Origin: Mytilus trossulus
Taxonomy: Eukaryota
Assembly: GCF_036588685.1 (NCBI RefSeq)
Contig: NC_086381.1
Span: forward strand, 51,398,001-51,462,000
DNA: 64,000 nt
Reading direction: 5' to 3'
In this document: piece by piece, positions 15,001-50,450 of the stretch
Layout: every line of letters starts with the position of its first letter
Position numbering within the stretch: the stretch's first letter is position 1
Position numbers and translations under genes: made by a program
The notes under the pieces: generated by a model
The model's input: the letters and a program-made list of their open reading frames with translations, nothing else
What the model was told of the DNA's origin: nothing
The model's database searches: none

Positions 15001-15874
15001 TGAGAACAGAAATAGGGAATGTGTCAAAGGAATAACAACCCGACCAAAGAGGAAAAAACAGCCGAAGGCCACCGATGGGTCTTCAATACAAAGAAAACCC
15101 GCATCCGGAGGCATATAACTGTGTACATGTAATTTACTTGTCGATAGCCACATAAGAAAGAAAACCTTCTTTGAAAACCTAAGCGAATACGTGAATGGTG
15201 TCCGTTTGAGCTCATATTGTATTAGATTGTCCTGTTCTAAAAGCTATACTTGTCCTTTGGAAATTTTTTTTTTATTTGGTGATAACATTTATCGTTTATA
15301 GTGATGATTGAGATAAGAAAAACAGATTATTGTGTTGAAAAATTATCATAAACATGACTAAATCAAGTTCATTTAATGAGCAGCCTAGTTGGAGCACTAT
15401 GTTAGAACAGAAGTTTTGAATAAAACCGTATAATTATTGAAGGTTTGAAATGCATTAGACTTTGATTGCCAATTAAAAATGTAGTCATCATAGTTCTGTT
15501 GATGTGATGTGTCTTATAGACAGTGATATTTGCAAACAGTATTAGTATCTACAAAAAATATTAGACACATTGACCTTTTTCAAGCGTTTAACGATCTCTG
15601 AGGCAGATATAGTGAACTTACATTAAAAGCTTGTACGTTAAAGAGATGCATTCTATAAATTGACATACGAATTTATTTTACTTAAGTTCATAAAGTTTAC
15701 TTCAGTGCATGGAATATACACGATAAACAAGCCAATAGTTTTTTTAACACCTTTATAATGATTGTTCTACGAATGTCTTTTACAGGAACCAATTACCAAG
15801 TTTTGTTAAATACACAACGTGAATTTGCAAAAGATATAATTGGAAGGGAAAGAGATGGTGATCATTTAAAATAA
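1..15874 (+). CDS. TRPM-like (TRPM2-like/TRPS-like) cation channel, paralog A; 5'-partial, 17 exons: <1-36, 734-845, 1616-1712, 2437-2585, 3261-3374, 4693-4752, 5848-5950, 6383-6556, 6840-6939, 8256-8535, 10305-10373, 10976-11107, 11918-12169, 12946-13141, 13630-13789, 14780-14961, 15786-15874
   Basis: All junctions are GT-AG with a consistent phase chain and no in-frame stop until TAA 15872-15874. Motifs: GTADLVA (SLOG end), ITVFNI, AVISNHVDLAAELWSQCENPLLTALVA (MHR4), FISHPSAQ, FVTAPIIK (pre-S1), WNMLD (S3), FLRLL (S4), PYWQVYGEL (pore), NWLLLNIVIAMFS (S6), WRFHR...PSPL (TRP domain). Confidence 0.9.
275..488 (+). repeat. Interspersed repeat family A (3' part)
   Basis: gagcaggatctgct...gccatggctttgtcagt...tgaatgtccctctggtatctttcgcccctc; copies at 47750-47980 (+), 26320-26460 (-), 31225-31290 (-), 50170-50250 (-). 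Confidence 0.75.
734..845 (+). CDS. TRPM-like A exon: (D)MNKLKRKLPVMFSRRFSDDMFEKMKKVLDRILQKEWM
   Basis: ttttcag acceptor, gtattt donor; phase 2->0 bridges the flanking exons. Confidence 0.7.
1238..1460 (+). mobile_element. Hammerhead-bearing repeat, decayed core (GAAA lost)
   Basis: gagcgtcactgatgagtcttatgtaaacatgacgcgcatctggcgt...ggtaccttt; homologous to 17225-17360 (-). Confidence 0.75.
1616..1712 (+). CDS. TRPM-like A exon: ITVFNIKKNKDDELWGKITDGILRAWSFEKKK
   Basis: tttttacag acceptor; similar to the TRPM 'ITVF...D.D.AIL.ALLK' motif; phase 0->1. Confidence 0.75.
2437..2585 (+). CDS. TRPM-like A exon (MHR3 region): DDVSVTYDPILPTQIDF...SRKELFAG...QDFHQ
   Basis: Strong polypyrimidine acceptor tttttttccag; phase 1->0; the donor choice (gtgatt) is less certain. 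Confidence 0.6.
3261..3374 (+). CDS. TRPM-like A exon: HTFVNAFLGKRTDIIQQVLSVDAKFTLAEDQFQTLCRE
   Basis: Aligns by eye with TRPM 'AMMDAL..DRVDFVKLLLENG...FLT...L..LY'; ag/gtaata junctions. Confidence 0.7.
4693..4752 (+). CDS. TRPM-like A small exon: VVKSISSKTDNGMNGFTLVE
   Basis: ttttattgcag acceptor, gtatta donor, 60 nt phase 0-0; no motif support. Confidence 0.45.
4975..5315 (+). repeat. Interspersed repeat family F (tttgattttgccatttgattagggacttt), partly tandem
   Basis: Copies at 4495-4580, 20135-20230, 40290-40570, 58100-58210. Confidence 0.65.
5848..5950 (+). CDS. TRPM-like A exon: NVYPEAFTYLKEGKGPGFKNARDAVIKISNKLLQ
   Basis: tttgtttcag acceptor, gttagt donor, phase 0->1. Confidence 0.65.
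6383..6556 (+). CDS. TRPM-like A exon (MHR4 start): GICFSKFGMVTCCKT...RVAVISNHVDLAAELWSQCENPL
   Basis: Matches TRPM 'WAVL.NR..MA..FW....EP'; donor gtaaga. Confidence 0.85.
6840..6939 (+). CDS. TRPM-like A exon: LTALVAHTYLIALADKAESLYEEELNKNLLSHSR
   Basis: 'ALVA' MHR4 motif; cag/gtacgt junctions. Confidence 0.85.
8256..8535 (+). CDS. TRPM-like A exon: KFLSRAIKLLDKLFQKDEDMATKALDYTSEVWG...FISHPSAQ...
   Basis: Matches TRPM 'F...A.ELLD.CY..DE..A..LL......WG...L..A.......FIAHP..Q'. Confidence 0.9.
8648..9162 (+). repeat. Interspersed repeat family C (agatataggaagatg...gagacaactct) with nested MITE
   Basis: Copies at 24678-24960 (+), 935-1105 (-), 31835-32120 (-), 33340-33720, 55725-56190, 56990-57225. 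Confidence 0.75.
8924..9025. mobile_element. ~100-bp hairpin MITE nested in a family C repeat
   Basis: ~35-bp TIRs agtcggtttcacaaaaaaacgtatgactaagatt / aatcttagtcttaaggtttttttgtgaaatcgact; interrupts catcag|attcc, which is continuous at 24922-24932. Confidence 0.75.
9770..10207 (-). repeat. Interspersed repeat family D
   Basis: Reverse complement of aataaaggcaacagtagtataccgctgttcaaaactc... at 11311, 44968, 61136. Confidence 0.85.
10305..10373 (+). CDS. TRPM-like A pre-S1 exon: HHMNWKSTWKFVTAPIIKLVVNV
   Basis: 'F..AP..KF..N' motif; 69 nt, same length as paralog exon 63022-63090. Confidence 0.85.
10976..11107 (+). CDS. TRPM-like A S1-S2 exon
   Basis: VFFILALVLFSYFLTRDL...SVLEVMLFFYMIGDLLEELWSM. 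Confidence 0.9.
11311..11634 (+). repeat. Interspersed repeat family D
   Basis: Near-identical inverted partner of 9888-10207. Confidence 0.85.
11918..12169 (+). CDS. TRPM-like A S3-S4 exon
   Basis: WNMLDLFCIILYIVGF...RRLYSLALFIMFLRLLNVLLLIKRIGIIIIMIKEM. Confidence 0.92.
12946..13141 (+). CDS. TRPM-like A S5-pore exon
   Basis: LVDLVEYLVILILFMLAAGIVYQANIYPN...IPYWQVYGELYLDIIE. Confidence 0.92.
13630..13789 (+). CDS. TRPM-like A outer pore-S6 exon
   Basis: GSDDTGCTNNATLWNNDPSIKRCPTSDLIPPVIAATYMMLTNWLLLNIVIAMFS. Confidence 0.92.
13950..14204 (+). mobile_element. SINE (V-SINE-like core) with (AATC)n tail
   Basis: Degenerate B-box gagtccgaacacc, core ttttctccgggcattctggtgtcctccac, tail gatcaatcaatcaat; 5' fragment also at 7755-7858. 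Confidence 0.6.
14780..14961 (+). CDS. TRPM-like A TRP-domain exon
   Basis: ARFDLIKEKSSQKWRFHRHSVVIEYEHKIPSPLNIPFR...CLVPCFVCSSC. Confidence 0.9.
15786..15874 (+). CDS. TRPM-like A terminal coding exon: GTNYQVLLNTQREFAKDIIGRERDGDHLK*
   Basis: ttttacag acceptor, phase 1; homologous to the last exon of paralog B (ERQFAKVII). Confidence 0.75.
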
Positions 15875-24958: not shown

Positions 24959-27900
24959 ACTAGTCATTACAGTGATTTTTTTGATATTACATGATATGGT
25001 TTCGTATTGACTTGATATAGTTTTGTTATCACTTAATATAGATCTGTAATTACTCGATGTGGTTTTACCATGATTGAATGTGGTTATGTCATAAGGCAAT
25101 GTGGTTTTAACATTACTTGATGTGTATGTGACATACCGTAGTGTAGTTGTCTCATTATATGATGTGGTTAGTTATTTCGTTATGATGATTTGTCAATTAT
25201 TTATATAGCTATAAATAACGTAATGATGTTTTAAAATTTGACGATTTTACACTACATGATGTGCTTATTTCATCTTTTGATCTTGTCATGTCATACTTTG
25301 ATGTTGTTGTCCCATCGCAACTACGAGGTAAAACCACGTGCCCATTTTGGAAAAAAAATACGTTCTATTTTTAGACCGATATCTATGTATCGTTCGTGTA
25401 ATGCGCTTTGGATGATTTTCGATATCCATTAAGTTAAAGTTTGAATTATAGTTCAAGTTGTTGTTCATTGTTATTTGAAATGACAAAAGGGAACGACAGA
25501 CAAAATTTAGAAAAAGTGATAAAACATGAACGGTTATTCGGACATAAGGGGGATATCCCAAAACCACTTGTCGGTTTTTCCTAAGTTCTCAAAAGGAAGC
25601 AGTATTATATTATGATTCCAAGGAACACTGCTTTATCTTGGTCTTGAAGAATAACTCCTATACAAGTTTTATAACAATTCTTTGAGATTTACAAATTTAT
25701 CATGTCAAAATAGTTTAATTTGGATATATTCAATTAAAAAGCGACAAAGCGTCGATTATGTCTTGTTCCTGTTGTTAGCCATTCGATGAAATGAGTCGGT
25801 ATAATAGTTTTTAAATATATATTAACCAACAAACAATGTTAAACCTGTCTCCAGGTATAAAAGTACGTGTAAGAGCATGTGTTAGTTTTGTTTAAATAAC
25901 AAAAACAAAAAATAAATGAAATCGAGGAAACACTTCAGTAAACCCTATGATATTTGATGTATAGCCGCATGCACACAACTTATGTGCCAACTATGTGAAT
26001 TAAACATAAACTGTTCACATCTACATGATCTACATCGATGTAATCATAGTTGTGAAGGGCCATATGTGAAACCAGCGGAAATAGCTACTATAATTTGATG
26101 TACTTCCTTGTTTCACCGAAAACAATATTTGTAGAGATGAATGTAAGCCATTTTAGAAATGAAAAATATTTTTTCAAATGATGTTATTTACATGTTTTAT
26201 GTTAGCATTATTCTCATAAATGTGGAAATTATTAGCTCTAAAGGTAAGTGAGAATGAACCTGTTGTTGTCAAGCTACTAATATATTTGTGTTGTGCGAAC
26301 GGATACTTATACACTGTAAAAGAGAAGCAAAATATACCAGAGGGACAGTCCGTCAAACTCATAGATCGAAAATAAACTGACAACTCCATGGCTAAAAAGT
26401 AAAAGGACATACAGACATATAACAGTACACATGACACAACATAGGAAACTAAAGACTAAATCTCGAGTTATAAAAACTTGATTTAATTGAAAGTCCCTGT
26501 TTGTTTTACTCTAGAATAGTGCAACAAGGTTTGTTTATAAAGATATAAGTATTGAAGAGTGCACACACGTTGATGTATAGATGCTAAATATGTTTTCTAA
26601 TCAAGATATTTCAGAATAAAATTTAAAAAAGGAACATTCAGTTTTAGATTCAATTCTGATTCTGTCATTGCTTTTATTAATGAGGAAACAGTGACAGTTC
26701 TTCTGTTTTAATTAAGTTTAATATTCTTATATTGCACACATATAAACCAAACGAAATTTTTATATATTCACGCGTTGAATATAAAACACGGTTTTACAAT
26801 GCACGATTTTAACAACGAGAAATTCATTGATGATGTCAAAAGAAAATATTCAAATTTAACCGTACAACAACATTTAGAAAAAAAATATCAATGATTAGAA
26901 AAAAAAGTGACTTTAAAATACTGCATGTAGCTATATGTATATTTTTTTCAACGGTTTAAACATTTTATTTCTTTAAAATATCAAGGAAATGAGTTATATA
27001 CAACATATACCAGATAAGCCTAATACAGTTTTTTTTTCTAGGTGACTCACGTTTGAATCAACATGCATGATCAAGGAAGTGAATGTCTGTTTTCAAAATG
27101 AGTTACGATGAAAATAGTATATGTTATATATATTCAGGTCTGAAACATGAAAATCTATACATATGCTTAAATAAATTGTTCGTGAAGTTGCCAAAAAAAA
27201 ATCGTTTAAACGAATTACTTAAATAACATTAAGGAATTTATTTTATTAAGGAACACAAAACCTGATACTGAAAAAAAAAAACTTAAAGTATTGGAAGTTC
27301 GAAATATATGTAACATTAAGGTCTTGGATAGTGTATATAATGTAACATTTTTGAGCCTATAATCATTGGAGAAGACAACAAGAAATGTATCGATATTGAT
27401 TATTGAATATTTCCCAACTTATTCGGTAGCCAAGAGCTTGCAGCTAATTCCGATTTTTTGCTTAACGTCACCAGTGTCTGATAGAAAGTTGATGAACTAG
27501 GGAGTATGATAAAAGACGTCTCATACGAAAACACGTTCATGATCGTCGATTATTCTAAATAAATTTTTTTTCTAACCAACCCACAAATCGTATGCATATT
27601 TGTATGCTAATGTCAAGACCTTTTTGGTGCACCAAAAGGATAAAATTCTTGGGTCATACCACTCAGACCCCTTTTATAATAAATTCTTAACTATCTCAAA
27701 AATAGTTTGCATCAATATCGATTGCCTTGATAAGTTGTTTTTAGTTTATCATAGGTTTTGTTTTTATGAGACCTTTTAGAACCTTACGTCATATAAGTTC
27801 TTTAAATGTCTTGGTTATACTTTCTATTCAAGAAAATATGTGAGTAGTACAAGCCACGTCTGTTTAATGTCTTTTAAATATTAAATATATCAAAAACTGT

Positions 27901-29577: not shown

Positions 29578-29745
29578 GAGAGATACCCTCTGCATATGTC
29601 ACGGATATCTATTATTCATGGAAAGAGGCAAACGAAATATGTGAAATGATTAGATTATATGATAACATACAGTTCCCTGACACGTATGGCACATTAAGTT
29701 GGGTAGATGCGCCTGTAGAATATTCCCAATGGGTTGAATATAAAG
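29578..29745 (+). CDS. Receptor exon: N-half of CTL-like domain 1 (…YYSWKEANEICEM…LSWVDAPVEYSQWVEYK)
   Basis: ttttattttag acceptor, gtagga donor; 'SW.EA...C' CTL motif. Confidence 0.75.
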
Positions 29746-32700
29746 GTAGGAATACCTAAGATTAGTCTTATGACAGAGGTAAAAAAAAACAAGTTCTAAC
29801 CATTACATAGGTTGTATTAAATCAATTTCAACATATTGATAATTGCGTTTGATAATTGCGGTATACACATTTCAACAAATTGAATTATTTTAGAAAGTGC
29901 CATGGCAACAATTTTCAAAGTTTGTTTTTTTTAAATTCAGCAATATACCATCTCCAGTGTTTTTATATTTGATAGAGTATACATTGGTCTTTATTATGCA
30001 ATAAAGTTTTTTTCTGTCGATGCCTGCGTTCTTTTATAAATCTTGCCTAGAAAAAGGTAAATTTTCATTTTTTTTATGAAATCTAAAAATACCGATCTTT
30101 GGTATTTTGGATTTGCTAATACCAGAATATTATGGACTGCTGATTTTATTTTTTTATTTTAAAAGTCAAGTACTATGCTTGTTATTACAATATCAAAAGT
30201 AATTTTATTGCACAATTTGTACAGGTATGTGTACACAAGTCCAAAGTTATCCCAATTTCACCTAAAAAGCATTGAATTTGAAGCCAAAATTTTAGGTCAA
30301 TGGTTACCATAGCAACCATACACATGAAACAAGATTTTTTTTTTCTCAATATAATCATATTTGAAGCATATATGCCGAATTTGGTGGAAATCTGACACCT
30401 ATGGTTTCCCAGTTCCTATTGATTCCTTTGATGCTTACAGAGAATTGCTAACTTAAAAGTTTTAAAGGTGCATGCTGTATTTTTCCTATATATTGTACAT
30501 CAAGAGTTCATATTTTGCAAACTACAGAATGAATATTTACTAAATGAAAATGTCTTGAACCGAAGTTCAGCTAAATGCGGACAAATTACACAATAAATGA
30601 AAAATCAATAAACCGTATCTAAATTCTCATAGACAATAATTTATGTACCTCAATTATTTCAATTAAGAATACCATTTTTATTTGAGTTTTGTTTAACCGT
30701 CAATTCATTTCCGTGTGTGTTTGTTTACATCTAGTAGTACAAATGCTGCTTTCATCTCAACAAAACTATTTCCATTTTACTCTAGATTGTGTGAACGTGA
30801 AACCAGAGTTCATAGAAAAACATAAACGTGTTCAATATGGCGATCAGTTGGGGCAATGCTTGCAGTATTGTGAAGACTATGACTACATTGGATTACAGGT
30901 ACGTGCATCAGCTATTGAATTAAATAGAAAACAGTTTTGATAAAAGTGCCTATTAAACAACTCTCCATTGAAGTAACAATATGTTAAAATTAAACACAAA
31001 AAGGTCGAAGTAAGGCCTTCATCACGAAGTTCTGACTCATAGCGAACAACAAACTGTAAAGGTACACGCAATTGAATGCTTTAAATAATTCAATCAGGCA
31101 CACCTTCGGTTTCATTTATATATCAAAAACTAAAAACGAGAAACACCAACAAATGACAATCACTGATTTAAAGGTTTTTGAAATGGCGTAACTCATTCAC
31201 AAGATGTATTAACAAAAACGAGTAAAAAAGAGACGAAAGATACCAGATAGGCAGTTAAGCTCATAAATCGAAAATAAACTGACAACGCCATTAGCATGAT
31301 CAGTTGCAATTATAAAACGTAATACATTTTTAATTATTCATCACGCTGAACGAACATATTTGATCTATGACACACTGTTAACACAATATTTATAACAAAA
31401 CGAAGAAGAGGAGATTAAATATAATATCAGAAGCACAACTATAAAATTAGGAAAAAAATACTTTGAATAAATTAACATACACAGGTGAATACAATATACA
31501 TGGGAGACAAAAATATTCTTTTCAAAATCTTCAAATTATCAAAAAAACGAAATGTGTTTAAATAACAAACATTTCTTTTTATTTCAAACTGACATTATGG
31601 TACTTTTAATTCATCTTCACTTTCTACTTCATTTCAATTGGGTTCAACATGGTAAAACAGTAACTTCTCTTAGCCTTTTATTTTAGTGTTATAATGTTTC
31701 ATTAAGCCTCATTTGTATGTTTACGATCTTAGTATGCCAAATGTAGATGAAACTGAATTATTGCTTATGTTGTTCACACCTACCCTTTATAAATCAGGCG
31801 CATAATGTTAGATTTACAACTAGTTATTAGAAACGTTCTATGCATATCCTAAGTCAGGATCCTGTAATTCAGTGGTTGTCGTTTGTTTATGTGTTACATA
31901 ATTGATTTTCGTTATTTTTTTTCACATAAATTAGGCCGTTAGTTTTCTAGTTTGAATTGTTTTACATTGTCTTATCGGGGCCTTTAATAGCTGACTATGT
32001 CGTATGGGCTTTGCCCATTTGTTGAAGGTCGTACGGTGACCTATAGTTGTTAAAGTCTGTGTCATTTTAGTCTTTTGTGGATAGTTGTCTCATTCGCAAT
32101 CAAACTACATCTTCTTTTTTATATTTCATTATATTCTCTAACATGTCTTATCATTCATTTATTTTACATTCATTCAAGATATTCAGTTTTTGTTCTGCTG
32201 CAAATTCATTTATTAAAAGGGCACTAGCTGTCAAATTCATGTTCACCAACTTTAATCAACTTTTAATATTTTATTAATAACAATGTTCATTTATTCAAGC
32301 TAGTTAAGTCTAAAATAAATAATAAACAGAGCACGAGCACAACAATACGTAGCTTCATTTCGTGTGTATATTAGTCTATACATCATCTAATTAAGTAGCA
32401 AGTTGGCCTCTTAACGATGACCATATAAACATACATATATATCTATACAGATTAACATAATTAAGCAAACTCGTGCTGTTGGATTATTCAATGTCTAATT
32501 ATTTAATTTCGTATTATAGATGAAAAAAAAATGTTTATCAGCCTTTTTACTTGTATAAGAATGATGTTTTGTGGATCAAATCGGTCTATAAAAGGATAAA
32601 TTTCTATAAAATGGACGTGTTATTCATCTCTAACTAGGGGTTAAATTGAATTCTCATGAATACAGATTTAATGAGGTTGAATTATTCACTTGCAAGTGAA

Positions 32701-35700
32701 TAATTAATAATAAATGTTTTTAGCCTTTTTGACAAAATTGAACCATACTGGCTGCTAAAAGCTAATTATTATTGCACTATTTGTATTTCATTAGTAATTG
32801 AGCAAACAAATATTAATGTTTTTATACATCTCGTAGCAAGTGCCACTTAAAGCGCCTTTCATTATTTCAAATAAATTTAGTCGGATGTGTGTATCTGTTT
32901 GTATCTGCTGTTAATATACTTATTTCCGATTTAAGAGTGTGATTTTTTTTTAATATATAAACCATTTATCTTATCCTTTTCTTCGACTGAGATTTGATTA
33001 TTTTGACTTTTTTTTATTACTTTGTTCCGAGATATTGAAACTGATTGAAGAACTTTTTTCTTGAATACTTGCTATATAAATTATTGTTTTTTTTTATAAA
33101 ATGTTTACCAGCAATCCAATTGTTCCTGTTTGAGCCTTTCTGAAATGAGTCATAACACTGTCATATCAGGTTGTTCACATAAAGAAATATGCAGAGGAGA
33201 CAAGTACGCATACTGTGCAAATGGCATCAGTAATTTTAACTGTTTTATTATCTACAAAAAAGGTAAATGGTAGTACATACTTTAATATAGCGGATGCAGT
33301 GAATTTCAGATGAATCAATGATAGTAAGGAGAATTTTGTTGTTATTGCCCATGAGACAACTATTTCTGAACATTCAGATGAAATAAATATAAGCTATCAT
33401 AGGCAACCACACGGCCTTTAACAATGAGGACACTCATACATTGTTGACGTCTTTTTAAAAAAAGGTCCCAATAGGAAAAATATGAACATAAAAATGACAT
33501 AATTAACGACTTCATTTGTAACAAAAAACAAAAAAATTACAAAATAACAAATATAACAGACATGTACCAGCATCAAGCAATTCAACTATATACTTCGGAT
33601 TTTTGACAGGCAGATAACGAATATGGCATGGTAAAGCATGTTTAAAGGCGCCAATTTTATCTAAACTTAAGATTTCGATGTAACGGCACAACATAAGAAC
33701 AAACTATAAAATTCAGAAAAAAACATCGATAAAGTAGATACAGTGTTAAGCTTATCTGTTTCAATTATACATATTTCCTGGTATATTGTATGTCTAACGT
33801 GTTGAATATATACATAAATATATTAAACAAGTTGTATATACATTATGTACACAGCCATGTATCACCATCATTGATGGCGATCCGATGAATAAATCTGTTG
33901 TAGAGTTGTCACTGACTCAGACGTTCTAATAAATATAATTATTTTCTGTGACTGTATTTTACATTAATTTGTAAGATCCTTTACTATAGATAATTGAGCT
34001 GATCTGTAACAATAACATCTCCATGCCTTATATATCATGTACTGTAGTACGCCGCTAGATTAAAACTGACGGGGAAAGGTAACACACGGTCACTAAAAGC
34101 TTTATTTTTTGTAGAGCCCAGGTGGTCGTATGGTCTAGCGGGACGGCTGCAGTGCAGGCGATTTGGTGTCACTATATCTCAGTAGCATGGGTTCGAATCC
34201 CGGCGAAGGAAAAACGAAATATTTGCGAAAGCAAATGTACAGATCTAACAGTATTGGGTCGATGTTTAGACAAGGTGTTAGATATCATGTATTGGTTGGA
34301 TAATCTGTTACGTCCTATCGTGTGTAGTCGGAATAATTATAAAATTGCTTATCCATACAATCTCGTAAAATAATTATATAAAGTTCAAGACTGCATGCTA
34401 GTTACGTAAGCGCGTCACTGTTTTTGATATGCTGTAACGTTTGTTTGTAGTTGATGACTTATGTTCGTTGTTGTTCTGTGGTTTTCATTTTGTATTCCCT
34501 ATTTTACTTGTTTGCTATTGAGTTTCGAAAATGACACAGTTTTTAGTTTAAATAGCTATTTACAACACAAACTTTACAGATATGTTTCAAATAAAAATAG
34601 CAAAGTGCGATATGCACCATCCTAAAATTCCAAAAGAGACGACAGTTAGGTAACAACAACCTTTACGTGTAAATACATTCACAAGAAACAACACAGACCG
34701 ATCTAACCTGGTAAAACATTTCAAATTTGACAACGGTAGAGTAACTACAACAGAGGCGGAGTAATTAAATATCCCAAATATATAGCATTTTAATAATTAT
34801 CATAAATAAAAAATTGACAATGATACAAACGCTGAATGTGACTTCGTTCTTGTTTGTACTCAAATGAATAAAACCCTGCGATAAAAACTCGTACAATTCA
34901 TAACATTTAGAGTTGGCAATGGTAATGGAATAGCAACAAGAGATTATCTGTGCAGTAATATGTAATGTTTACTTATCAAATTAAAAAGAAGCACTGCGCG
35001 AATCATATCTATACAACTTTTCAAATGCATTTATCTTATTTGCTGGCAACGTTTTTAATTTTCTTATCTAAAATATTTGTGAATGAGACTTTCCTCCGTA
35101 TATCAAACAGTGTTGTGTCTTTGATTGTAATTTTCATTCGATTGCGCTCTGCCTAAAAAATTGTCTTTATTAATATGTTCAGTGGACTTTTCTTTTGTTT
35201 CCTTTTCGCCCAACAATGTTCTGTGACACACAGGGTTTGATAATTCTAGAATTTTCACATGTTCCCGTTTTAGTTATGTCATTATGATTTCCATTTTACA
35301 GACCTGTGTGATGTGTTTTGCTTCAATAATTATTTGTTCCTGAAAGGAGTTTGTATTGTAAAACTATTTTATATTATGTTTTAGTAATATTTGTATGCAA
35401 AACAATAAGTGTTATGATGATTTTCAGAAATATTATTGGGAAAAACAACACAATTCATGATATTCAGATAATACAAACAGTGAAAACGATCATGCAGAAA
35501 TAAAAATGACTAGTAATTTCAGGTAACTTTTGGCTGTGTTTTTGTAATTGAGTGTCGTCCTTCTTGAACAGTTATGATGTGTCCAAGATAAACGGCATCC
35601 ATAAATTGAATGTACGAATCATCTTAGGTTATGAAAATTTTCCTAGGAATTTGTCAGACATTTTTGTTGATAAAAATAGTTTCAAAACACATCATTTTAC

Positions 35701-38700
35701 TGAACAATCTTCGTTTTCGGAAAACACTGATTTATGTAGAATAAAAGCAAAATCATAATATATGAACGTCGATTATATCTATCATTATTATTATGTTATT
35801 ATACAGTGAATATCAACGAGCAATTACACATCGGAAATTGTTTAAAAGTTACAAGGGCTCACGACCAAAATAGTTCTTTTAGAGCAAGCCCGTGTAATGG
35901 AGTCTCCAAACCGTTGTGTACAAGTAAGAACTTATTTATGAAACTGTGTCTGTTTTGTTTAATCAACTAATATGAGTTTGCGTATTGTTTTGTTTCTTGC
36001 CCCTATAGCTCCTCAAAAATGCGTCCTCTGATTATATAGTTTCATTCCACGTTACATAACTTTATAAATTTCAATGGTCAATTTAAATGAATTTTCAATG
36101 AGTAATGCGATTTCAAGATACTGTTCTGGTGGGTTATATGAATCAACTGACCAGCTAGTGTACGCAGTTTATATATATAGAATATATAAATAAAAATGTG
36201 AAAATGTGGTATGAGACATCTCACCTTTTAAGTCACTATGCATAAAAAGTAATCAATTAAAGATTAAACTACAGCCTTCAACCGGAACGTTGGAAAACCG
36301 GCAACCACTGACCAACTGGCTCCTGACTTCGAAAGGTGCATACAATTACAGCGATTTGAATTGTTTAACAGGCACGTACACTAACCTTACTATGAGAAAG
36401 AAGTTTATCACTTCAACATAAACATTTTATATTAAGGATATAGTTTTGTTAGGTTAAGGATTTTTTCAGATGTTCGAAATCTGTTGGTTTTTACTTACGA
36501 TACAGGTTACACAATGTGCCCCATATCATCCATCCTTTTTTCATGAAAGACTAGGAGAGTTCAACATGGGTCGTTTCTAAAATATTAGCACATTCTAGAT
36601 TTTATTTGAGACCCAAATAAGGCCTGCGCTTAATATAAGTTAAAAGTCTAAGTAACTCTTTTCTCGCCCTTTCTTTAAATTACAATATCTTGAAATGAAT
36701 TGTCATTAACCCTTAATACTCTAAGCTTACTGTGTTCTTTTACTACGGCTCTTCTGATTAACAATATCAATTTCAAATTTTCTTAAAAATTGTTTTAAAT
36801 TTCACCTAACTACAACCCTTAACATTGCTGTAAAACGAAAACTTGTTTTTGTTTTAGGCTGCATTTTTGAGTTTGTTTATTAAATCATTGTCATCTTTTT
36901 TAATACATGAATCAGGCATGCGCAGTTTCTACGGACATTCGCAAAATTGGATAAGCTCTTTCAGCCAATGTAAACCAGAACTCTTTGTTTCATATGATCG
37001 TTACAAACAGTCACAACTATGGCAAGAAGGACTATTTTGGTTAGCTAATATAAGGAGACCATATATTAACCATTTCCTGGTATGTTTAATAAGCCAAGCC
37101 GTCTGTTTGATATGATTTTGTGTATCTATTTTTTACATTTTCTGTATTTTAATTTAGATTTTAAACAACACTAATTTCTAATCGTTATTTATAAATTAAT
37201 CAAGGTTGTAACAACTAAAGTAAAGTTGACCTTTTATATGTTCATTATAGCTTGGCTTATGTATGTATCCAAAAATACAAAGTAGTAAATAATTTATATT
37301 ATACCTTTGCAAATACATTAAATATCAGATGAATCAATCGGTCATACATAAAATTTGTATTAAGGTTTCACTGATGAGTCTTATGTAGACGAAACTAAAT
37401 AATAATCCTGGTACCTTTGATAACTATATTCGCAGGATTTAAAACTGGGTTCAATACATCATTTTCTACATAAAACAAAATTTCTTGATATTTGACAACT
37501 GTTATAGGAAAAACGTAGTATGTAACGTGTAGTGTGATATCTTCACTATACCCTATTAACTACTTATAACTAATTTGGTAACTTGATGTACAGTAGTTCG
37601 TCTTTTGGGATTTCTTCTGACTCCCTTTTTACATCGATTTACCACTTCGAAAATGTTTACCGACAATTGCGCATCGTTGAAATATTCTGGATGTACCTTC
37701 ATCAGGAACGATTAAAACCAAATATTTGAATACCACAGACTTATAAGAACCGAAACTATTGAAGAACTATTTGACAAACATTAACCTTATAGTCACATTA
37801 TCGGGTTAAGGAAAATAGACTTCATGCAATTATTGTTTTATGTTCTATAATCATGATAATGGCATACTTTTTATTTTGACGATATTTTCATGAAAAATGT
37901 CTCTTTAAAGAAGGAGAAATTATTGATACGGAAATTTTATGTCCAAAACAGTTGCTTTCTTTTGAAGTGTTAGTTAAAAAAAAAGCATTACAAATCATGT
38001 TAATGAAATCTGAATGATACAAAAAAAAAGATATCACTTTGATCAAACAATTGTCAAATGACTGTTGAATTATTTAGTTAGCAACATCTAATAATATACT
38101 ATATAAAGTTTATACATTGCAGTTGGGTTAGAATGTTACTGGTGAAATTTATGGCGAAGCGCGTATTGCCTTCTTAGTAAAATACGATAAATAAGAGTAG
38201 AAATAAAATACCCGGTCAAAATATACATCAACCAAAACAAACATACATGCATATTATACATCAAGTACTTAATTTACAGAATTTGAACCTAAATACTGTA
38301 TGGCTGTGACCACACGAACATGTGATCATCGGGTATATACATATGTCAGGCAATGCACAGAAAAACTACCAGTCTTATGTGCTGTCACAAATAAGACGTC
38401 GCCGGAAAATATACCATCTACTTATTCGGTTGAGATTCCTGAACTGGACTTCATTGTTAACACGACCAAAAGTACGTTTGTATTTAATGTTTCTTTTAAT
38501 AGTCTTAAAGTGAGAATGAGTCAAAGAGACAACAGCACAATCAAATGTCAGAACACAACTGCATTTTTCATGTACCTATTAAATGCTTACGTGTTTTTAC
38601 CGAATCTTTTTTGCTAAATTTTGGGAAAAAAATTATTAAAAGAAATGTAGTATATTTGTTGATTAAGGGAAATCTACTCACACTTTTAGGTTGTATCGTT

Positions 38701-41700
38701 ATGATTTTATCTGAAATTATTTGAGTTAAACGTACAATATTCCTTCCAATTCTAGCCTTTTTATTGTAAACATGGTAAAGGCTAGAGTTTACTTTTTGTA
38801 TGTACTAATATAAAGTTGGCTTTTTTTTTCTTTTTGACCCGCCTTATTTAGTTTATTTGTATAAGTATTCTGTGTTGTATGAATGTATGCATGTATGCTA
38901 ACTCAAGTCGTTTGTTCCATAACAGATACTGTACCAGCGTCCGATATTACAACATTTACAATTTCGGTTGAAGTTCCTGAACTGGATTCTAATGTAAAAG
39001 CGAGTAATAGTAAGTTACTCATTTGATGTTCCGTTATATAGCCGTGTATGATTTATCAATTGCATGTTACTTGTGTACGGCATATGTTGTACATTCTCTC
39101 TGTTCCTCGATTTCCAATTTTACATATACATCAGTTCATCCTCTATTGACTCTTAAAATTCAAGAGTTAATCTAAAAATGAGGGTACTTTCTCTAAAAGT
39201 GAGGGTGCTTTTTATATGGCCTTCCAAATACCGTTTCGATCCCTAACATCACTGAAGAGACATTTATTGTCAAAATCCGGATATGGCCATGGTGTACTAA
39301 AGAAATATTGACACCGAATGTTTGTGGCACAAAATCCTGTCCACAAGTTAACAATTTTTTTTTTTCTGTGACGTATTAAATTTATATTTGGATCCATTTT
39401 GTTACATCTTGTGATCAATTTTATTTGGCAATCGCCAATGGCAGTCAGCAGGGTTAAAGAACATCAGTTGTTCGACCTGTTAGTCAAATGCGTTTTGTTT
39501 AAAAATACTTTTTCACTTCTTTGGTCTTTTTGGAAAATGTTGTTTGTGCTGTTTTTAGACCCTTCTACAACGACATTTGTGTTACATGCACACGTATAAA
39601 AGTTGCGGTTTTTATCCAACGCAATCATCGGTTTGACCGTAGTTTTCAATTTAGACTCGTATATATATCCATATATATATGTAGCTCGTCTAAACATCAA
39701 CCCAACAATGTTAGATCTGTTAATATGCTTTCGCAAATTTTTCGTTCTTCCCTCGCCGGGATTCGAACCCATGCTACTGTGATATCGTGACAGCAAATCG
39801 CCTGTTCTGACATTATTCATCATCTAAATAACGTATTAATTTTCTTTGTTTTTCTTTGTATTTTTAGATTCATTTTTAAGTCATTTATGAGCATTATTTT
39901 GTCTGGTCTGTGCGTCCGTTACCTCGTTCGTTCGTCCGTTCGTCCGTCTGTCCCGCTCATGGTAAAGTGTTCAGGTTAATGTTTTTGGTTGAGTTAGTTT
40001 TTGATGAAGTTGAAGTCCAATCAACTTGAAACTTAGTACACATGTCCACTTCGATATGATCTTACGTATTCATTTGCCGAAAAAGAGATTTAACCCCATT
40101 TTAACGGTCCACTGAATATAGAAAAATAACAGTCTTGATGGGCATCTGTGTACTATGGACATATTCTTGTTGTTTTTAATGCAGTTTGTCACTTAAAAAT
40201 TACTTCTTGTTTCACATTTGTCTTTTTGTTTTACTTATATACCTTATTTACCTTGTTTTCATGCCATTCAGTTTCAACAGTTATTTATGATTAAGATTTT
40301 ATAATAATGTTGACTGATGTACCAACAATTTGACGTTTTTTACTCATTATGTTTAATTACTCACTTATGGTTGTCAACATAATAGAATAAGTGAGATTTT
40401 AGATGTTTAGCTAGCTATAAAATAAGGTTTAATCCCAATTTTCTACATAGGAAAATGTCTGGTTATGACCTGTGGTTTCCATTCGTTAGAAATGTTTGAG
40501 CTTTTGATTTGTCATTTAATAAAGGACTTTACGTTTTGAATTTCCCTGGGAGTTCGTTAGTTTTGTTTTTTTAACGGTTGTTCATATACATTTCAGATAT
40601 TCTACTGATAACACTGGTTATAACAGCCGTACAAGCTGTTGTGGTTTTTATTGTAGTGATCGTTGTATGCATAAGGTATGGTTTCCTGCTAAAATTATTA
40701 TCGAATGGATAGGACTGGAAGTATATTTTCTTATTTAAAACTGATGTCGCAGTTAAAAACAAATTGGAGTAAAAAATGTAATGAGATATTATCGATAGTT
40801 TTTCTAGCAATTGAAACATATAAATACCAAACTTATTATTATCCTTTTGAAGTTGTAAATGTATACCTCAAGTATATAAAAACAAAAAGACAGAATTGCA
40901 TCACCTAATTATAACCATTTTTTACAAATATGTTTCTTTTTTTTTTCAAATCTATTGTCCAATTTTGTAATAACTTGCATAAGCGAGAAGCTATTATATG
41001 ATATTGCCTTGAGTATATTTGGCAAAACTTTAAGGAATGTCTTGTCCTAACTGCTCTTCAAATTCGTACTTTATTAGGCCTTTTCAACATTTTGTCATTC
41101 TAGAGTCACTGATGGGTCTTTTGTAGACGAAACGCGCGTCTAGATCAAATATACAATTCAAATACAGGTACCTATGATGCGTTTCACCAAAAAGGATTGA
41201 TAAGAAAAGCCAAATGAATATTCAACCATATTTGCATGACTGAGTAGAAACATAAGTTTCTTGATCATTTCTGTATTGATCAACGACGTATTTTAGCAAA
41301 TTATGTTAACAGTACCTTAGCAAGGGTTTTTGAGCTAAAAATTCAGTCGGAGAACATAATGGGGTTAATTGATGGTTACATATATTGATATTTGGAGATC
41401 TTGTACTGTTGACTGTTCATTCTGTTACAGTTTAAGTCTATCTTTTATTGTTACATTATTGATAAATTCATAAATAAGCTAAAATGCAACTCCTTGATGT
41501 TTTCGTTTGATAGTCCCAATCCCTAATCTCGGATTATCAATCTGTTATCTCGAATTAAGACAATATACCTTGAATATATTTAATACTCCGTTATATTAGA
41601 ATTTTATTACATTTTTTTATATTGAGGAATAGTTATATTTTAGGTTACGTGATCAAGAGTTTTGAAGACGAAGTCTATTCTTCCAAAACATTCCGTTTAA

Positions 41701-42503
41701 TAACTTGCAATCTAAGAGTTCTTGCATGGAAACCATGTGTAAACTGACGAACGACAACATACTCAAGCTCATGCATTGTTCAGGTTCTATTTATATTTTT
41801 GTCCTATTGAAAATCAGGCATGTGGTCATACAACATTCGAACATTTTTATTGTACTCAGACTCATGAATTAACCAATAAAATTACTGATTTGTTGTTTTG
41901 GGCACATATTTGGTACTAAGATAACTACTAGAGCTTTATTTTACGACCGAGAGTAACGTCTGCATCTGGTTTGTCAAGATCACAAAGTTTGAGCATCATT
42001 ACAGATATAATACGTATTAAAATGTTAAACTGGTGCAGTAAACTTGAAAACACTGATGTTATTTTAGAAAATGCATTTAATTATATTGATATTTCAATCC
42101 GTGAACTTTCACTTTATCACTTATCTTTTTTTTTTGTTTGTTCAGACGTCGGAACTCATCAATAACTCGACATCAACAAACTCCTGTTCCAACCAATGAA
42201 GTTACATACGCTCAGGTCAACAAGCCTACAAAAGAGAAAACACCTGACCATGCTGGCGAACAGACTAGAAAAAACCCAGTCGACGATGCCTATGATCATA
42301 TGGAACATCATCGACTCAGTCAGTATCAGATTCCAACTGAGAGCAATTATGATACCATGCAGTCTGGTGGAAATGAAGAATTGGAAAATGACTATGACGT
42401 CACAAGTGGAACAGACAGACCAAGACAAATTGTCGTTGATGATAGTTCAGAATATAGTCATGTACAGGTAGAACATCATGAAATAAAAGATCCATCGGCT
42501 TAA
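29578..42503 (+). CDS. Single-pass type I membrane receptor (CTL-like/WSC ectodomain, Tyr-motif tail); exons 29578-29745, 30786-30898, 33112-33262, 35807-35923, 36916-37079, 38280-38471, 38926-39009, 40597-40675, 42146-42503; start/signal exon not resolved
   Basis: GT-AG exons encoding SWKEANEIC, a WSC Cys pattern (YKDC...CLQYCEDYDYIGLQ...CSC...C...C.GD...YC), CTL-like C...C...C closures, a ~25-aa hydrophobic TM followed by RRR, and a tail with VTYAQV/SEYSHV. One phase mismatch at 37079/38280. Confidence 0.75.
30786..30898 (+). CDS. Receptor exon: WSC domain N-half (DCVNVK…GQCLQYCEDYDYIGLQ)
   Basis: WSC consensus C..C...Y.Y.GLQ; ctag/gtacgt junctions. Confidence 0.85.
32217..32846. mobile_element. 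MITE flanked by TTAA (Kolobok-like), with internal 26-bp perfect palindrome
   Basis: ttaa|aagggcactagct ... agcaagtgccac|ttaa; aattattcacttgcaagtgaataatt at 32679-32704. Confidence 0.55.
33112..33262 (+). CDS. Receptor exon: WSC domain C-half (QSNCSCLS…GCSHKEICRGDKYAYCANG…IIYKK)
   Basis: CxC...C...C.GD....C pattern of WSC; cag/gtaaat junctions. Confidence 0.85.
34116..34275 (+). mobile_element. tRNA-derived SINE
   Basis: A-box tggtcgtatggt, B-box ggttcgaatccc, no acceptor-stem pairing; 5'-truncated inverted copy at 39683-39804. Confidence 0.75.
35807..35923 (+). CDS. Receptor exon: C-half of CTL-like domain 1 (…IGNCLKVTR…FRASPCNGVSKPLCT)
   Basis: CTL-type C..(x)n..PC.....LC; phase 1-1. Confidence 0.75.
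36916..37079 (+). CDS. Receptor exon: N-half of CTL-like domain 2 (…SQNWISSFSQCK…GLFWLANIRRPYINHFL)
   Basis: 'NW..S...C' and 'FW' CTL-like motifs; atcag/gtatgt junctions. Confidence 0.65.
37368..37426 (+). mobile_element. Hammerhead-bearing repeat fragment (stem III/I 3' arm deleted)
   Basis: tcactgatgagtcttatgtagacgaaac...aatcctggtacctttgataacta. Confidence 0.7.
38280..38471 (+). CDS. Receptor exon: C-half of CTL-like domain 2 plus stalk (…YCMAVTT…RQCTEKLPVLCAV…YSVEIPELDFIVNTTK)
   Basis: C.A....C...LP.LC motif; tttacag/gtacgt junctions. Confidence 0.75.
38926..39009 (+). CDS. Receptor stalk exon (NTVPASDITTFTISVEVPELDSNVKASN)
   Basis: Phase 1-1, gtaagt donor; partial duplicate of the 3' end of the previous exon. 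Confidence 0.7.
39245..39295 (+). mobile_element. Hammerhead-bearing repeat fragment, CUGAAGA subfamily (GAAA->AAAA)
   Basis: catcactgaagagacatttattgtcaaaatccggat; palindromic stem III atccggat. Confidence 0.6.
39683..39804 (-). mobile_element. tRNA-derived SINE, 5'-truncated copy
   Basis: gccgggattcgaacccatgctactgtgatat...aaatcgcctg is the reverse complement of 34155-34270. Confidence 0.75.
39870..40172 (+). mobile_element. pearl/HINE-like non-autonomous element with (GTCC/GTTC)n microsatellite
   Basis: cgttcgttcgtccgttcgtccgtctgtcc followed by a core repeat; inverted homolog at 54038-54505. Confidence 0.6.
40597..40675 (+). CDS. Receptor transmembrane exon (NILLITLVITAVQAVVVFIVVIVVCIR)
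   Basis: ~25 hydrophobic residues; tttcag/gtatgg junctions; phase 1->2. Confidence 0.85.
41005..41180 (+). mobile_element. Hammerhead-bearing repeat, decayed (CUGAUGG, broken stem I)
   Basis: gtcactgatgggtcttttgtagacgaaacgcgcgtc...ggtacctatgat. Confidence 0.7.
42146..42503 (+). CDS. Receptor cytoplasmic tail exon with ITIM/YxxM motifs
   Basis: Long polypyrimidine acceptor; RRRNSS...EVTYAQVNK...DAYDHM...SNYDTM...NDYDVT...SEYSHV...*. Confidence 0.88.
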
Positions 42504-48639: not shown

Positions 48640-49600
48640 TTAAGTAATTCATATTTTCAGATCTTTTTTTTCTAAAACAGGACACTGAAGAAGAAATTGA
48701 TTTTCATCCTCAACTTCAATGTTGCATAATTTCCATATTCTATCCTCCACCGAAGACCCATATACATGAACCTGCCTCTATCAATTTCTAATTTATGTGC
48801 ACTGACTCTGAACTTAGTGAGCAGTCGCCTTTCATCCTCATTCAAAATTATTAAATATCTTTCCATACAAATATTTTCTTCAACTAATCTGTAAGGTCTT
48901 AGCTTTATTTTCATGCTGTTTATTTTGTCTATCATTGTAAAGTTCAGATTTCTAAATGCAAGAATATTTCTGTTTTGATTTCCGGTAAATTAGTGATTTT
49001 AAATACATCCTTGAATTTTTAAAATGCTTGAGATCTATATCAAGATATATTAAGAATAATAATACAACTATACCAACTATTTTTGTTAAATCTATTTAGT
49101 GATCTAGAGACATTAAGAGCGTCAGAGAGGACTTTAATATATATTTATAATATCTACGCATACTTAAAATTACATCAAGAAATAAGGGATATCTTCCAAT
49201 TTCACCCAATACAGCTATAGTTGTAGATGTTTTTAGTCAAACCAACATTTACAGAATGTGTCATGAATATTTCTTGTTTCATGTCCCTGCATAGTTGAAA
49301 TAGATTATGTTCATTTTTATTTAGTTTATGTATTACTTAAGCTCCCCATATTTCACTCCCATTTAACAACACAGGTGTCACAGTATGATGAAATATATAT
49401 GTGAAATTTGTTGATTTTTAGGCTTATATAACTTAAAACTTCCTATATATTTACAACCCCTAGCACTTTCAATAGGTACATTTTTTATCATTAAATATTA
49501 TTTCATACTATTTTTCTGTTTAATCAAATACTACTGATTTAGTTTTTTTTATATTTATTTGGATCCCCCATTATCACAGTAATTATATAGTTTACACATC
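48640..49600 (-). pseudogene. Decayed CR1/L2-type LINE ORF2 3' fragment
   Basis: Remnants TPVLLNGSEIWG, AVLGEIGRYPL, MERYL...ERRLLTKFRVSAHKLEIDRGR; frameshifts. Confidence 0.75.
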
Positions 49601-49939
49601 TGTAATCTACAATACATGTTAAATACATTTTACGAATATGTGACCAGCCATGAGATTTTCAGGCTTATGGAGGTTTTAGAACCAAAATGAGTTTTTTGCA
49701 TTTTTATGAAGTACACATAGATATAAAACACCCAGGAAGAGTTTTTGGTCGAATTATCAAAATTAAAAGAATCGTGCGCATTTTTGTGAGATGCAATTTT
49801 TTTTTTAAATTGTATCACTTTGCAATATTTCTAAGGTTTATCTAATTTAGTTCTCCTTGCAAGTTGACATATGGTTGTGTGTTTGATTTTTTTTAGTCTT
49901 CAAAATTATCAAAATGTAACTAAAGTGAACTAAATTTAT

Positions 49940-50165
49940 TGATGATATTATTGTGACGAATGGAAAATGAAAATAAATACAAATAAAACTAAAGTTTTGA
50001 TCTTTTCGAGTGGCAGAATGCCAGCAAATCTCAAGTTCACAGTTAATTGTAACGACATTAAAATTGTCAAAGAATACAAATATTTAGGTATTTTATTTTC
50101 TAGAAGTGGATCCTTTTTATCAAATAAAAAATATTTAAAAGAACAAGCCACAAAAGCTGATGCAA
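49940..50165 (+). pseudogene. LINE reverse transcriptase C-terminal fragment
   Basis: YCDEWKMKINTNKTKVLIFS...IVKEYKYLGILFSRSGSF...QATKA. Confidence 0.8.
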
Positions 50166-50450
50166 CATAGAAAACTAAAGATTTAGCAAAACAAACCTAG
50201 CTAACAAAAAACTGGCGGTGATATCTGGTACTCAGGAAGAGTAAGCAGATCCCATACACTTCTGTAAATATATATATATATATATATGATTATAAACAGT
50301 AAATTTAGTAAGTTCCAAATTTCAGATGAGACATAATTTGCAGTCATTCAATGAATTAATTGTCATTTACTTTGAAATACAAGTCATATTTAAAATTATA
50401 CTGTAATAGAAATATACAACTAATATTAAAAACACTTCATAAAATGTCTT

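What the first reader, a model, noticed from the sequence alone, without database searches (positions are those of the whole stretch)
29578..35923. WSC domain inserted inside a divergent C-type-lectin-like domain
Seen: exon 29578 encodes a CTL N-half (SWKEANEIC...WVD) running into WVEYK|DC; exons 30786 and 33112 encode a complete WSC Cys pattern; exon 35807 encodes a CTL C-half (GNC...PC.....LC). A second CTL-like domain without the insert follows (36916 + 38280). No EPN/QPD/WND Ca2+-sugar motifs are visible. Inference: a nested-domain ectodomain in which glycan recognition may have moved to the WSC module (WSC is linked to beta-glucan/carbohydrate binding).
Basis: partly seen in the sequence, partly recalled or inferred. 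Interest (0 to 1): 0.7.

Follow-up and report, generated by a model that had tools for sequence, protein, structure and literature searches.

The report
Nested lectin-fold receptor family in bivalves
This mussel gene belongs to an unstudied bivalve family of predicted cell-surface receptors in which a WSC module sits between the halves of a lectin-like domain, and the four half-domains likely pair crosswise like nested dolls; nothing here shows that it binds sugar.

Summary
The exons are real at the stated coordinates. They belong to a 10-exon gene for a predicted type I membrane receptor: signal peptide, N1, WSC, C1, N2, C2, transmembrane helix, tyrosine-motif tail (N and C are C-type-lectin-like half-domains). 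The family has at least 13 loci in this genome and members in four other Mytilus species, a scallop and a freshwater mussel. The WSC fold is supported (Wsc1 Z 7.5; one paralog passes Pfam). N1 is lectin-like by profile (87%). C1 alone is not (1%) but is homologous to C2. EPN/QPD/WND are absent (0 of 29). A conserved lone cysteine before the WSC implies nesting. AlphaFold left N1 unresolved and modelled C1 and N2 confidently, and a sister subfamily duplicates the C1+N2 exon pair. This favours an inner circularly permuted domain inside an outer N1+C2 domain (about 50% against 30%). No contacts were seen directly. Glycan binding by the single WSC is unsupported. The reference lacks one base at the exon 6 donor; contigs from three studies are in frame.

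The parts
26159..26243 (+). First coding exon, hydrophobic signal-peptide-like segment (ATG at 26159 in P0001, or 26192); phase-1 donor
   Evidence: no RNA junction listed for it
29578..29745 (+). N1: lectin-like N-half (W-x6-C helix, beta2 Trp) plus the strand leading into the WSC; phase 1-1
   Evidence: 87% against lectin profile; X4 contig matches this exon exactly; pLDDT mostly under 50
30786..30898 (+). WSC first half; phase 1-0
33112..33262 (+). WSC second half; phase 0-1
35807..35923 (+). C1: lectin-like C-half (C-x17-C-x7-C); phase 1-1; likely partner N2, rival partner N1
36916..37079 (+). N2: second lectin-like N-half; the reference lacks one base near 37075, so its donor is out of phase
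   Evidence: contigs of X1, X3, X4 have the extra base
38280..38471 (+). C2: terminal lectin-like C-half and start of Ser/Thr stalk; phase 1-1
38926..39009 (+). Stalk exon resembling the end of the previous exon
   Evidence: loose end of an X1 contig
40597..40675 (+). Transmembrane exon (best 19-residue hydropathy 3.18)
42146..42503 (+). Cytoplasmic tail, six tyrosines, two ITIM-like motifs (VTYAQV, SEYSHV)
   Evidence: contigs begin at 42144 in X1 and X6 and a piece of an X3 contig begins there

Best explanation
This gene encodes a predicted single-pass surface receptor whose WSC module lies between lectin-like half-domains, and the halves likely pair crosswise: C1 with N2 as an inner circularly permuted lectin-like domain, and N1 with C2 as an outer one enclosing both it and the WSC. 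The WSC likely entered by exon shuffling into a phase-1 intron in the long loop, where the Ca/sugar site normally lies. The three-lobed head would bind its ligand without calcium, more likely a protein or cell surface than a simple glucan. It would signal through phosphorylation of tail tyrosines, probably as a member of a diversified recognition-receptor family. Shown: exons, most junctions, family, WSC fold, loss of Ca motifs, tail motifs, duplication unit. Inferred: lectin fold of the halves, their pairing, shuffling origin, ligand, signalling.
For: Nesting: 16 cysteines are conserved, as 1 (N1) + 8 (WSC) + 3 (C1) + 1 (N2) + 3 (C2). Wsc1 uses its eight in four internal bonds (PMC9024836 legend), so the N1 cysteine should bond downstream of the WSC under either pairing. 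Lectin likeness: N1 87%; N1 extended + C1 92% over 86 columns; N2+C2 32% over 87 columns; C1 vs C2 82%; shuffled maxima 13.5 and 20.4 against observed 32.8 and 25.2. Crosswise pairing: (a) AlphaFold on P0001, which lacks C2, gives pLDDT about 86-93 for C1 and N2 and mostly under 50 for N1, the half whose crosswise partner is missing. (b) All 7 of 7 extra internal C-halves in expanded relatives resemble C1 (44-48%) rather than C2 (14-19%), and two of three genes on G000:C13 show the exon order N1-WSC-C1-N2-C1'-N2'-C2 in DNA. (c) The first N copy stays closer to unexpanded N2 than the last copy in 7 of 7 proteins, so C1' and N2' diverged together. (d) The C1-N2 linker is 9-19 residues in 25 of 27, and beta1 and beta5 are neighbours in this fold (PMC7618208 passage). 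Shuffling: half-domain exons are phase 1-1, and 9 of 9 other two-exon WSC modules inspected are phase 1-0-1 with the same inner and 3' introns. Tail: two ITIM-like motifs, reached by 10 of 1000 shuffles.
Against: No atomic contacts were seen; the pairing is read from confidence and secondary structure of a model of a truncated protein with 37 sequences, which may simply pair the nearest halves. With a strict cut, adding C1 to N1 did not raise the profile score above controls that add WSC pieces (32.8 against 30.6 and 33.5), though aligned columns rose from 41 to 78. The expansions may be one or two events, and the margin in (c) is only 0.02 in three isoforms of one gene. Distance correlations did not separate the models, and N1-C1 was highest (0.34). 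The two freshwater-mussel proteins have an extra cysteine pair before N2 like ordinary tandem long-form domains (pattern recalled). The 5' WSC intron sits a few codons later than in free WSC modules, and the C13 subfamily has a one-exon WSC. ITIM-like motifs are missing in 8 of 24 tails. No ligand or signalling data exist.
Confidence: 0.5

Rival explanations
1. One reading: N1 and C1 fold together around the WSC, and N2 and C2 form a second ordinary-order domain.
For: Simplest order; N1+C1 aligns with N2+C2 at 88.5%; N1-C1 had the highest partial distance correlation, 0.34; long-form cysteine pair before N2 in Sinanodonta; the latest duplication in the M. californianus gene copied N2+C1'.
Against: N1 unresolved while C1 and N2 are confident. 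The older duplication would force N2 to fold with a C1-type half only 12-21% like C2. N2-C2 partial correlation was -0.17. The profile alignment cannot tell the pairings apart, since N1+C2 scores alike (76%).
Confidence: 0.3
2. N1 is a degenerate leader, and the flanks form another small disulfide fold or an interchain bond, so the WSC is followed by a domain but not nested in one.
For: N1 lacks most of helix 2 (17-33 residues from Cys to Trp) and loses its first Trp in the second subfamily; no Lectin_C hit listed for the 17 or the 15 proteins scanned.
Against: N1 matches the lectin profile far above shuffles; its cysteine is kept in 27 of 29 and the Trp-to-Trp spacing is 9 in 24 of 24; databases label P0002 and P0032 as C-type lectin domain proteins.
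Confidence: 0.15
3. Function rival: the WSC is the glycan-binding site and the receptor senses beta-glucan.
For: WSC occurs in the glucan-binding lectin SiWsc3 and a glucanase (PMC9024836); Ca motifs are absent from the lectin halves; receptor clustering could supply avidity.
Against: Only one WSC per chain; the same paper says single domains lack an obvious pocket; the CGG motif is CAN here and WSC identity across 10 members averages 30%.
Confidence: 0.25
4. This copy is a truncated secreted protein or pseudogene, as the 277-residue database model implies.
For: The reference is out of frame at the exon 6 donor.
Against: Contigs of 3 of 4 runs, from three studies, carry one more base and join in frame, matching M. 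coruscus P0002. An assembly slip or a rare null allele is likely.
Confidence: 0.1

Closest known systems
WSC domain, PF01822 (yeast Wsc1 7pz2, Kremen1 5fws, fungal glyoxal oxidase 9n3u)
   Same: Eight cysteines and fold; model residues 73-176 align at Z 7.5, rmsd 4.0, 97 residues; three of the top four rows are Wsc1 or Kremen and the fourth also matched the WSC stretch by sequence
   Different: Lies inside a split domain, not in series; CGG motif changed; P0001 itself has no Pfam hit
C-type lectin-like domains without Ca sites (group V type such as NKG2D; PMC7618208 passages)
   Same: W-x6-C helix, beta2 Trp, C..C-x7-C; no EPN/QPD/WND; the variable long loop is the altered part
   Different: Below Pfam detection; short helix-2 region; split by a whole domain; type I topology; likely permuted pairing
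Bivalve-specific multidomain lectin proteins that include WSC (PMC10140915 passage)
   Same: The lectin + WSC combination is mentioned for uncharacterised bivalve proteins
   Different: The passages seen describe no insertion or permutation; Figure 7 was not visible and the one supplement held had 0 hits for WSC, so whether this family is among them is unknown
Polycystin-1 (architecture recalled; search listings only)
   Same: Has both a WSC and a lectin domain in one ectodomain
   Different: Domains in series in a very large multipass protein
Segment-swapped lectin-fold proteins (collagen IV NC1, PMC3779223 table row; snake venom lectin-like dimers, recalled)
   Same: Show that this fold tolerates exchange of segments
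   Different: No inserted domain, not receptors

Membership tests
WSC domain (PF01822) | Eight conserved cysteines | tested here: met
   26-27 of 29 at each position
WSC domain (PF01822) | Pfam gathering score | tested here: inconclusive
   P0001 no hit; paralog P0003 33.6 bits over cut-off 27.8; 6 of 15 relatives hit, 1 of 15 over cut-off
WSC domain (PF01822) | PAN/apple-type WSC fold | tested here: met
   pLDDT about 73-96; Wsc1 Z 7.5, Foldseek E 1.9e-3; Z under 8 is modest, but next unrelated row is 4.6
WSC domain (PF01822) | CGG motif (PMC9024836 legend) | tested here: not met
   CAN in P0001; CG retained in many relatives
[quoted passage not shown] | Four core cysteines and WIGL-type Trp | tested here: met
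   Present twice, in halves, degenerate
[quoted passage not shown] | Match to Pfam Lectin_C PF00059 | tested here: not met
   No hit for P0001, none among the 25 families shown for 17 members, none in 15 proteins; HH profile match 32-92%; Atlas feature hits under 0.9, lead only
[quoted passage not shown] | Double-loop fold formed by N- and C-halves | tested here: inconclusive
   No lectin chain listed; model lacks C2 and N1 is unresolved
Ca-dependent C-type carbohydrate-recognition domain | EPN or QPD plus WND at Ca site II (PMC7618208) | tested here: not met
   0 of 29; EPD occurs in 8 of 29 but inside the WSC
ITIM-bearing receptors | [SIVL]xYxx[IVL] in the tail (consensus recalled) | tested here: met
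   Two in this gene; at least one in 16 of 24 tails
ITIM-bearing receptors | Phosphorylation and phosphatase recruitment | not testable with these tools
   Needs experiment

The most novel reading that the evidence does not exclude
A bivalve receptor family built as nested dolls: an outer lectin-fold domain whose long loop holds a WSC domain plus one or more circularly permuted lectin-fold domains, the permuted unit being expandable by exon-pair duplication. I found no natural circularly permuted C-type lectin domain in two paper searches.
Probability: 0.45. Interest if true: 0.72.

Novelty: new variant of a known kind. Interest (0 to 1): 0.55.

Why it matters
Bivalves have large unexplained receptor repertoires, and this family is largely invisible to Pfam. 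If the crosswise pairing holds, it is a natural permutation of one of the commonest animal recognition folds, made by exon shuffling, and one fold prediction or disulfide map can test it. Even under the simpler pairing, a whole domain replacing the sugar-binding loop is unusual. The frameshift also shows that the public 277-residue model is a truncated form of a roughly 490-500 residue receptor.

Tried and rejected
Pfam on single exons and on P0001: nothing useful. Single-sequence AlphaFold: pLDDT 31, discarded. Fold searches listed no lectin chain; a permuted or half domain would be missed, so this is not evidence of absence. Complex prediction of N1 against the rest of paralog P0004: no answer, score 0.02, alignment not used; not used as evidence. 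No holder run is on record as RNA, so the contigs are only RNA-like; they skip introns but some also cover intron pieces. Distance correlations among halves, 10 proteins: no separation. Tree of 56 C-half rows: 41 columns, weak support, one row was a WSC piece caught by the pattern; it cannot count the expansion events. P0009, a bacterial repeat protein, was treated as a cysteine-pattern match and dropped. P0010 and P0030, apparent fused gene models, P0046 (786 aa) and short fragments were left out of the folding alignment. Atlas structure search: best row an unnamed mollusc cluster of 60 members, TM 0.64 over query 34-212; WSC rows under 0.5; not decisive. Paper searches for insertion or permutation gave nothing on this family; the library lacks most subscription journals. 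Earlier findings by sequence and place: none on this gene.
Full report
Gene. The stated exons have canonical splice ends. A search with exon 36916 returned P0001, labelled Mytilus trossulus LOC134684735, whose first 266 residues follow the same exon joins; 255 of 255 aligned residues are identical to my model. The window is G000:C9:51398001-51462000. Further exons give a stalk, a transmembrane helix and a tail with six tyrosines. P0001 stops at 277 residues because the reference lacks one base near 37075. Contigs from 3 of 4 runs, three studies, bridge 37074 to 38279 with that base, as does M. coruscus P0002. One 487-base X4 contig holds exon 29578, the end of exon 30786 and exon 33112; X7 bridges 35923 to 36916. 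The junction 33262 to 35807 was not bridged and rests on two gene models. The runs are only guessed to be RNA.

Family. The representative search gave 28 proteins and the profile search 21. Named members come from five Mytilus species, the scallop Mizuhopecten and the freshwater mussel Sinanodonta, all uncharacterised; databases label some as WSC and some as C-type lectin proteins. In this genome, nine N1-exon hits cluster at C9:48.05-48.32 Mb, about 3.1 Mb away, and three genes lie on C13. These are exon hits, not all checked for intact frames. Sixteen cysteines are conserved across 29 aligned ectodomains; in expanded members and P0001 the C2 columns hold other residues, so those counts are approximate.

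WSC. P0001 has no Pfam hit, but 6 of 15 relatives hit PF01822 and P0003 passes the cut-off. The alignment-based model is confident over the WSC and matches Wsc1, a fungal oxidase and Kremen at Z 6.3-7.5. The domain call is sound.

Lectin halves. I built a control profile from 21 of 26 single-exon Lectin_C domains of the same genome; five with stops were dropped. N1 scores 87%, N2 22%, C1 1.2%, C2 0.6%. N1 extended through its Y-x-x-W plus C1 scores 92%; N2+C2 32%; C1 against C2 82%. With the strict cut, C1 adds aligned columns but no score over controls. So the halves are probably lectin-like, the C-halves by cysteine pattern and mutual homology only. EPN, QPD and WND, which make the Ca site (PMC7618208, passages), are absent in 29 of 29. 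The break falls in the long loop.

Nesting. N1 has one conserved cysteine and each C-half has three. Wsc1 pairs its eight internally (PMC9024836, passages). Unless the N1 cysteine is free or interchain, it must bond past the WSC. This holds whichever C-half it pairs with.

Which halves pair. The model of P0001, which lacks C2, leaves N1 mostly under pLDDT 50 and gives C1 and N2 about 86-93, with a long strand at 250-257 that needs a partner. I infer C1-N2 packing; no coordinates were available. In the C13 subfamily the ectodomain grows by repeats, and 7 of 7 internal C-halves, in 6 proteins that include isoforms, are C1-like. Two of three C13 genes show C1-N2-C1'-N2'-C2 in DNA. The later copy pair diverged together while C1, the first N2 and C2 stayed close to unexpanded members. 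This fits C1+N2 as a self-contained permuted domain. Against it: a truncated input invites nearest-neighbour pairing, the expansions may be one or two events, distance correlations were uninformative with N1-C1 highest, and Sinanodonta has an ordinary-looking cysteine pair before N2.

Origin. The half-domain exons are phase 1-1 and the WSC pair is 1-0-1. Nine of nine other two-exon WSC modules, picked from Pfam hits with adjacent halves and read from consensus splice sites, are also 1-0-1 with the same inner and 3' introns. Exon shuffling is therefore likely. The 5' intron is a few codons off, and the C13 genes have a single WSC exon.

Function. The layout is that of a signalling receptor. The tail has two ITIM-like motifs (consensus recalled; 10 of 1000 shuffles reach two), and 16 of 24 tails have at least one. 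A calcium-dependent lectin is excluded by the motifs. Glucan binding by a single WSC is doubtful on the passages of PMC9024836. A protein or cell-surface ligand is my guess; nothing was tested.

Literature. PMC10140915 (passages and one supplement) mentions WSC among extra domains of bivalve lectin proteins without describing insertion; its figures were not visible and may bear on this. PMC3779223 (passages) lists segment swapping in collagen IV NC1. All other papers were seen as search listings only. Ten searches showed no description of this family.

Verdict. A real, conserved and apparently undescribed nested architecture; a new variant of known domains. Interest 0.55, higher if the permuted inner domain is confirmed.

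Noticed in passing
window 2337-15871 (+) and about 61783-51233 (-): Two similar multi-exon TRPM-like channel genes face each other on either side of this receptor gene (Ion_trans E 7.5e-06, TRPM2-like E 0.007 for + strand exons).
   Followed up: partly
window about 37075: One base missing in the reference relative to contigs of three studies truncates the public protein model.
   Followed up: yes
G000:C13:46.42-46.69 Mb (L060-L065): Sister subfamily with duplicated C1+N2 exon pairs, a one-exon WSC and tails with up to 24-28 tyrosines in repeats.
   Followed up: partly
G000:C3:28.0-29.0 Mb (L053): Large array of near-identical two-exon WSC repeats.
   Followed up: no
G000:C9:32.3-32.5 Mb (L024-L044): Cluster of intron-poor open frames with tandem canonical lectin domains, many with EPN.
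   Followed up: no
window 48675-50167: Open frames that look like LINE-type retroelement fragments (resemblance recalled; Pfam gave no hit for the piece tested).
   Followed up: no
window 33112-33262: A ninth cysteine at the end of the WSC in this gene, its M. coruscus ortholog and the scallop member could allow dimers.
   Followed up: no
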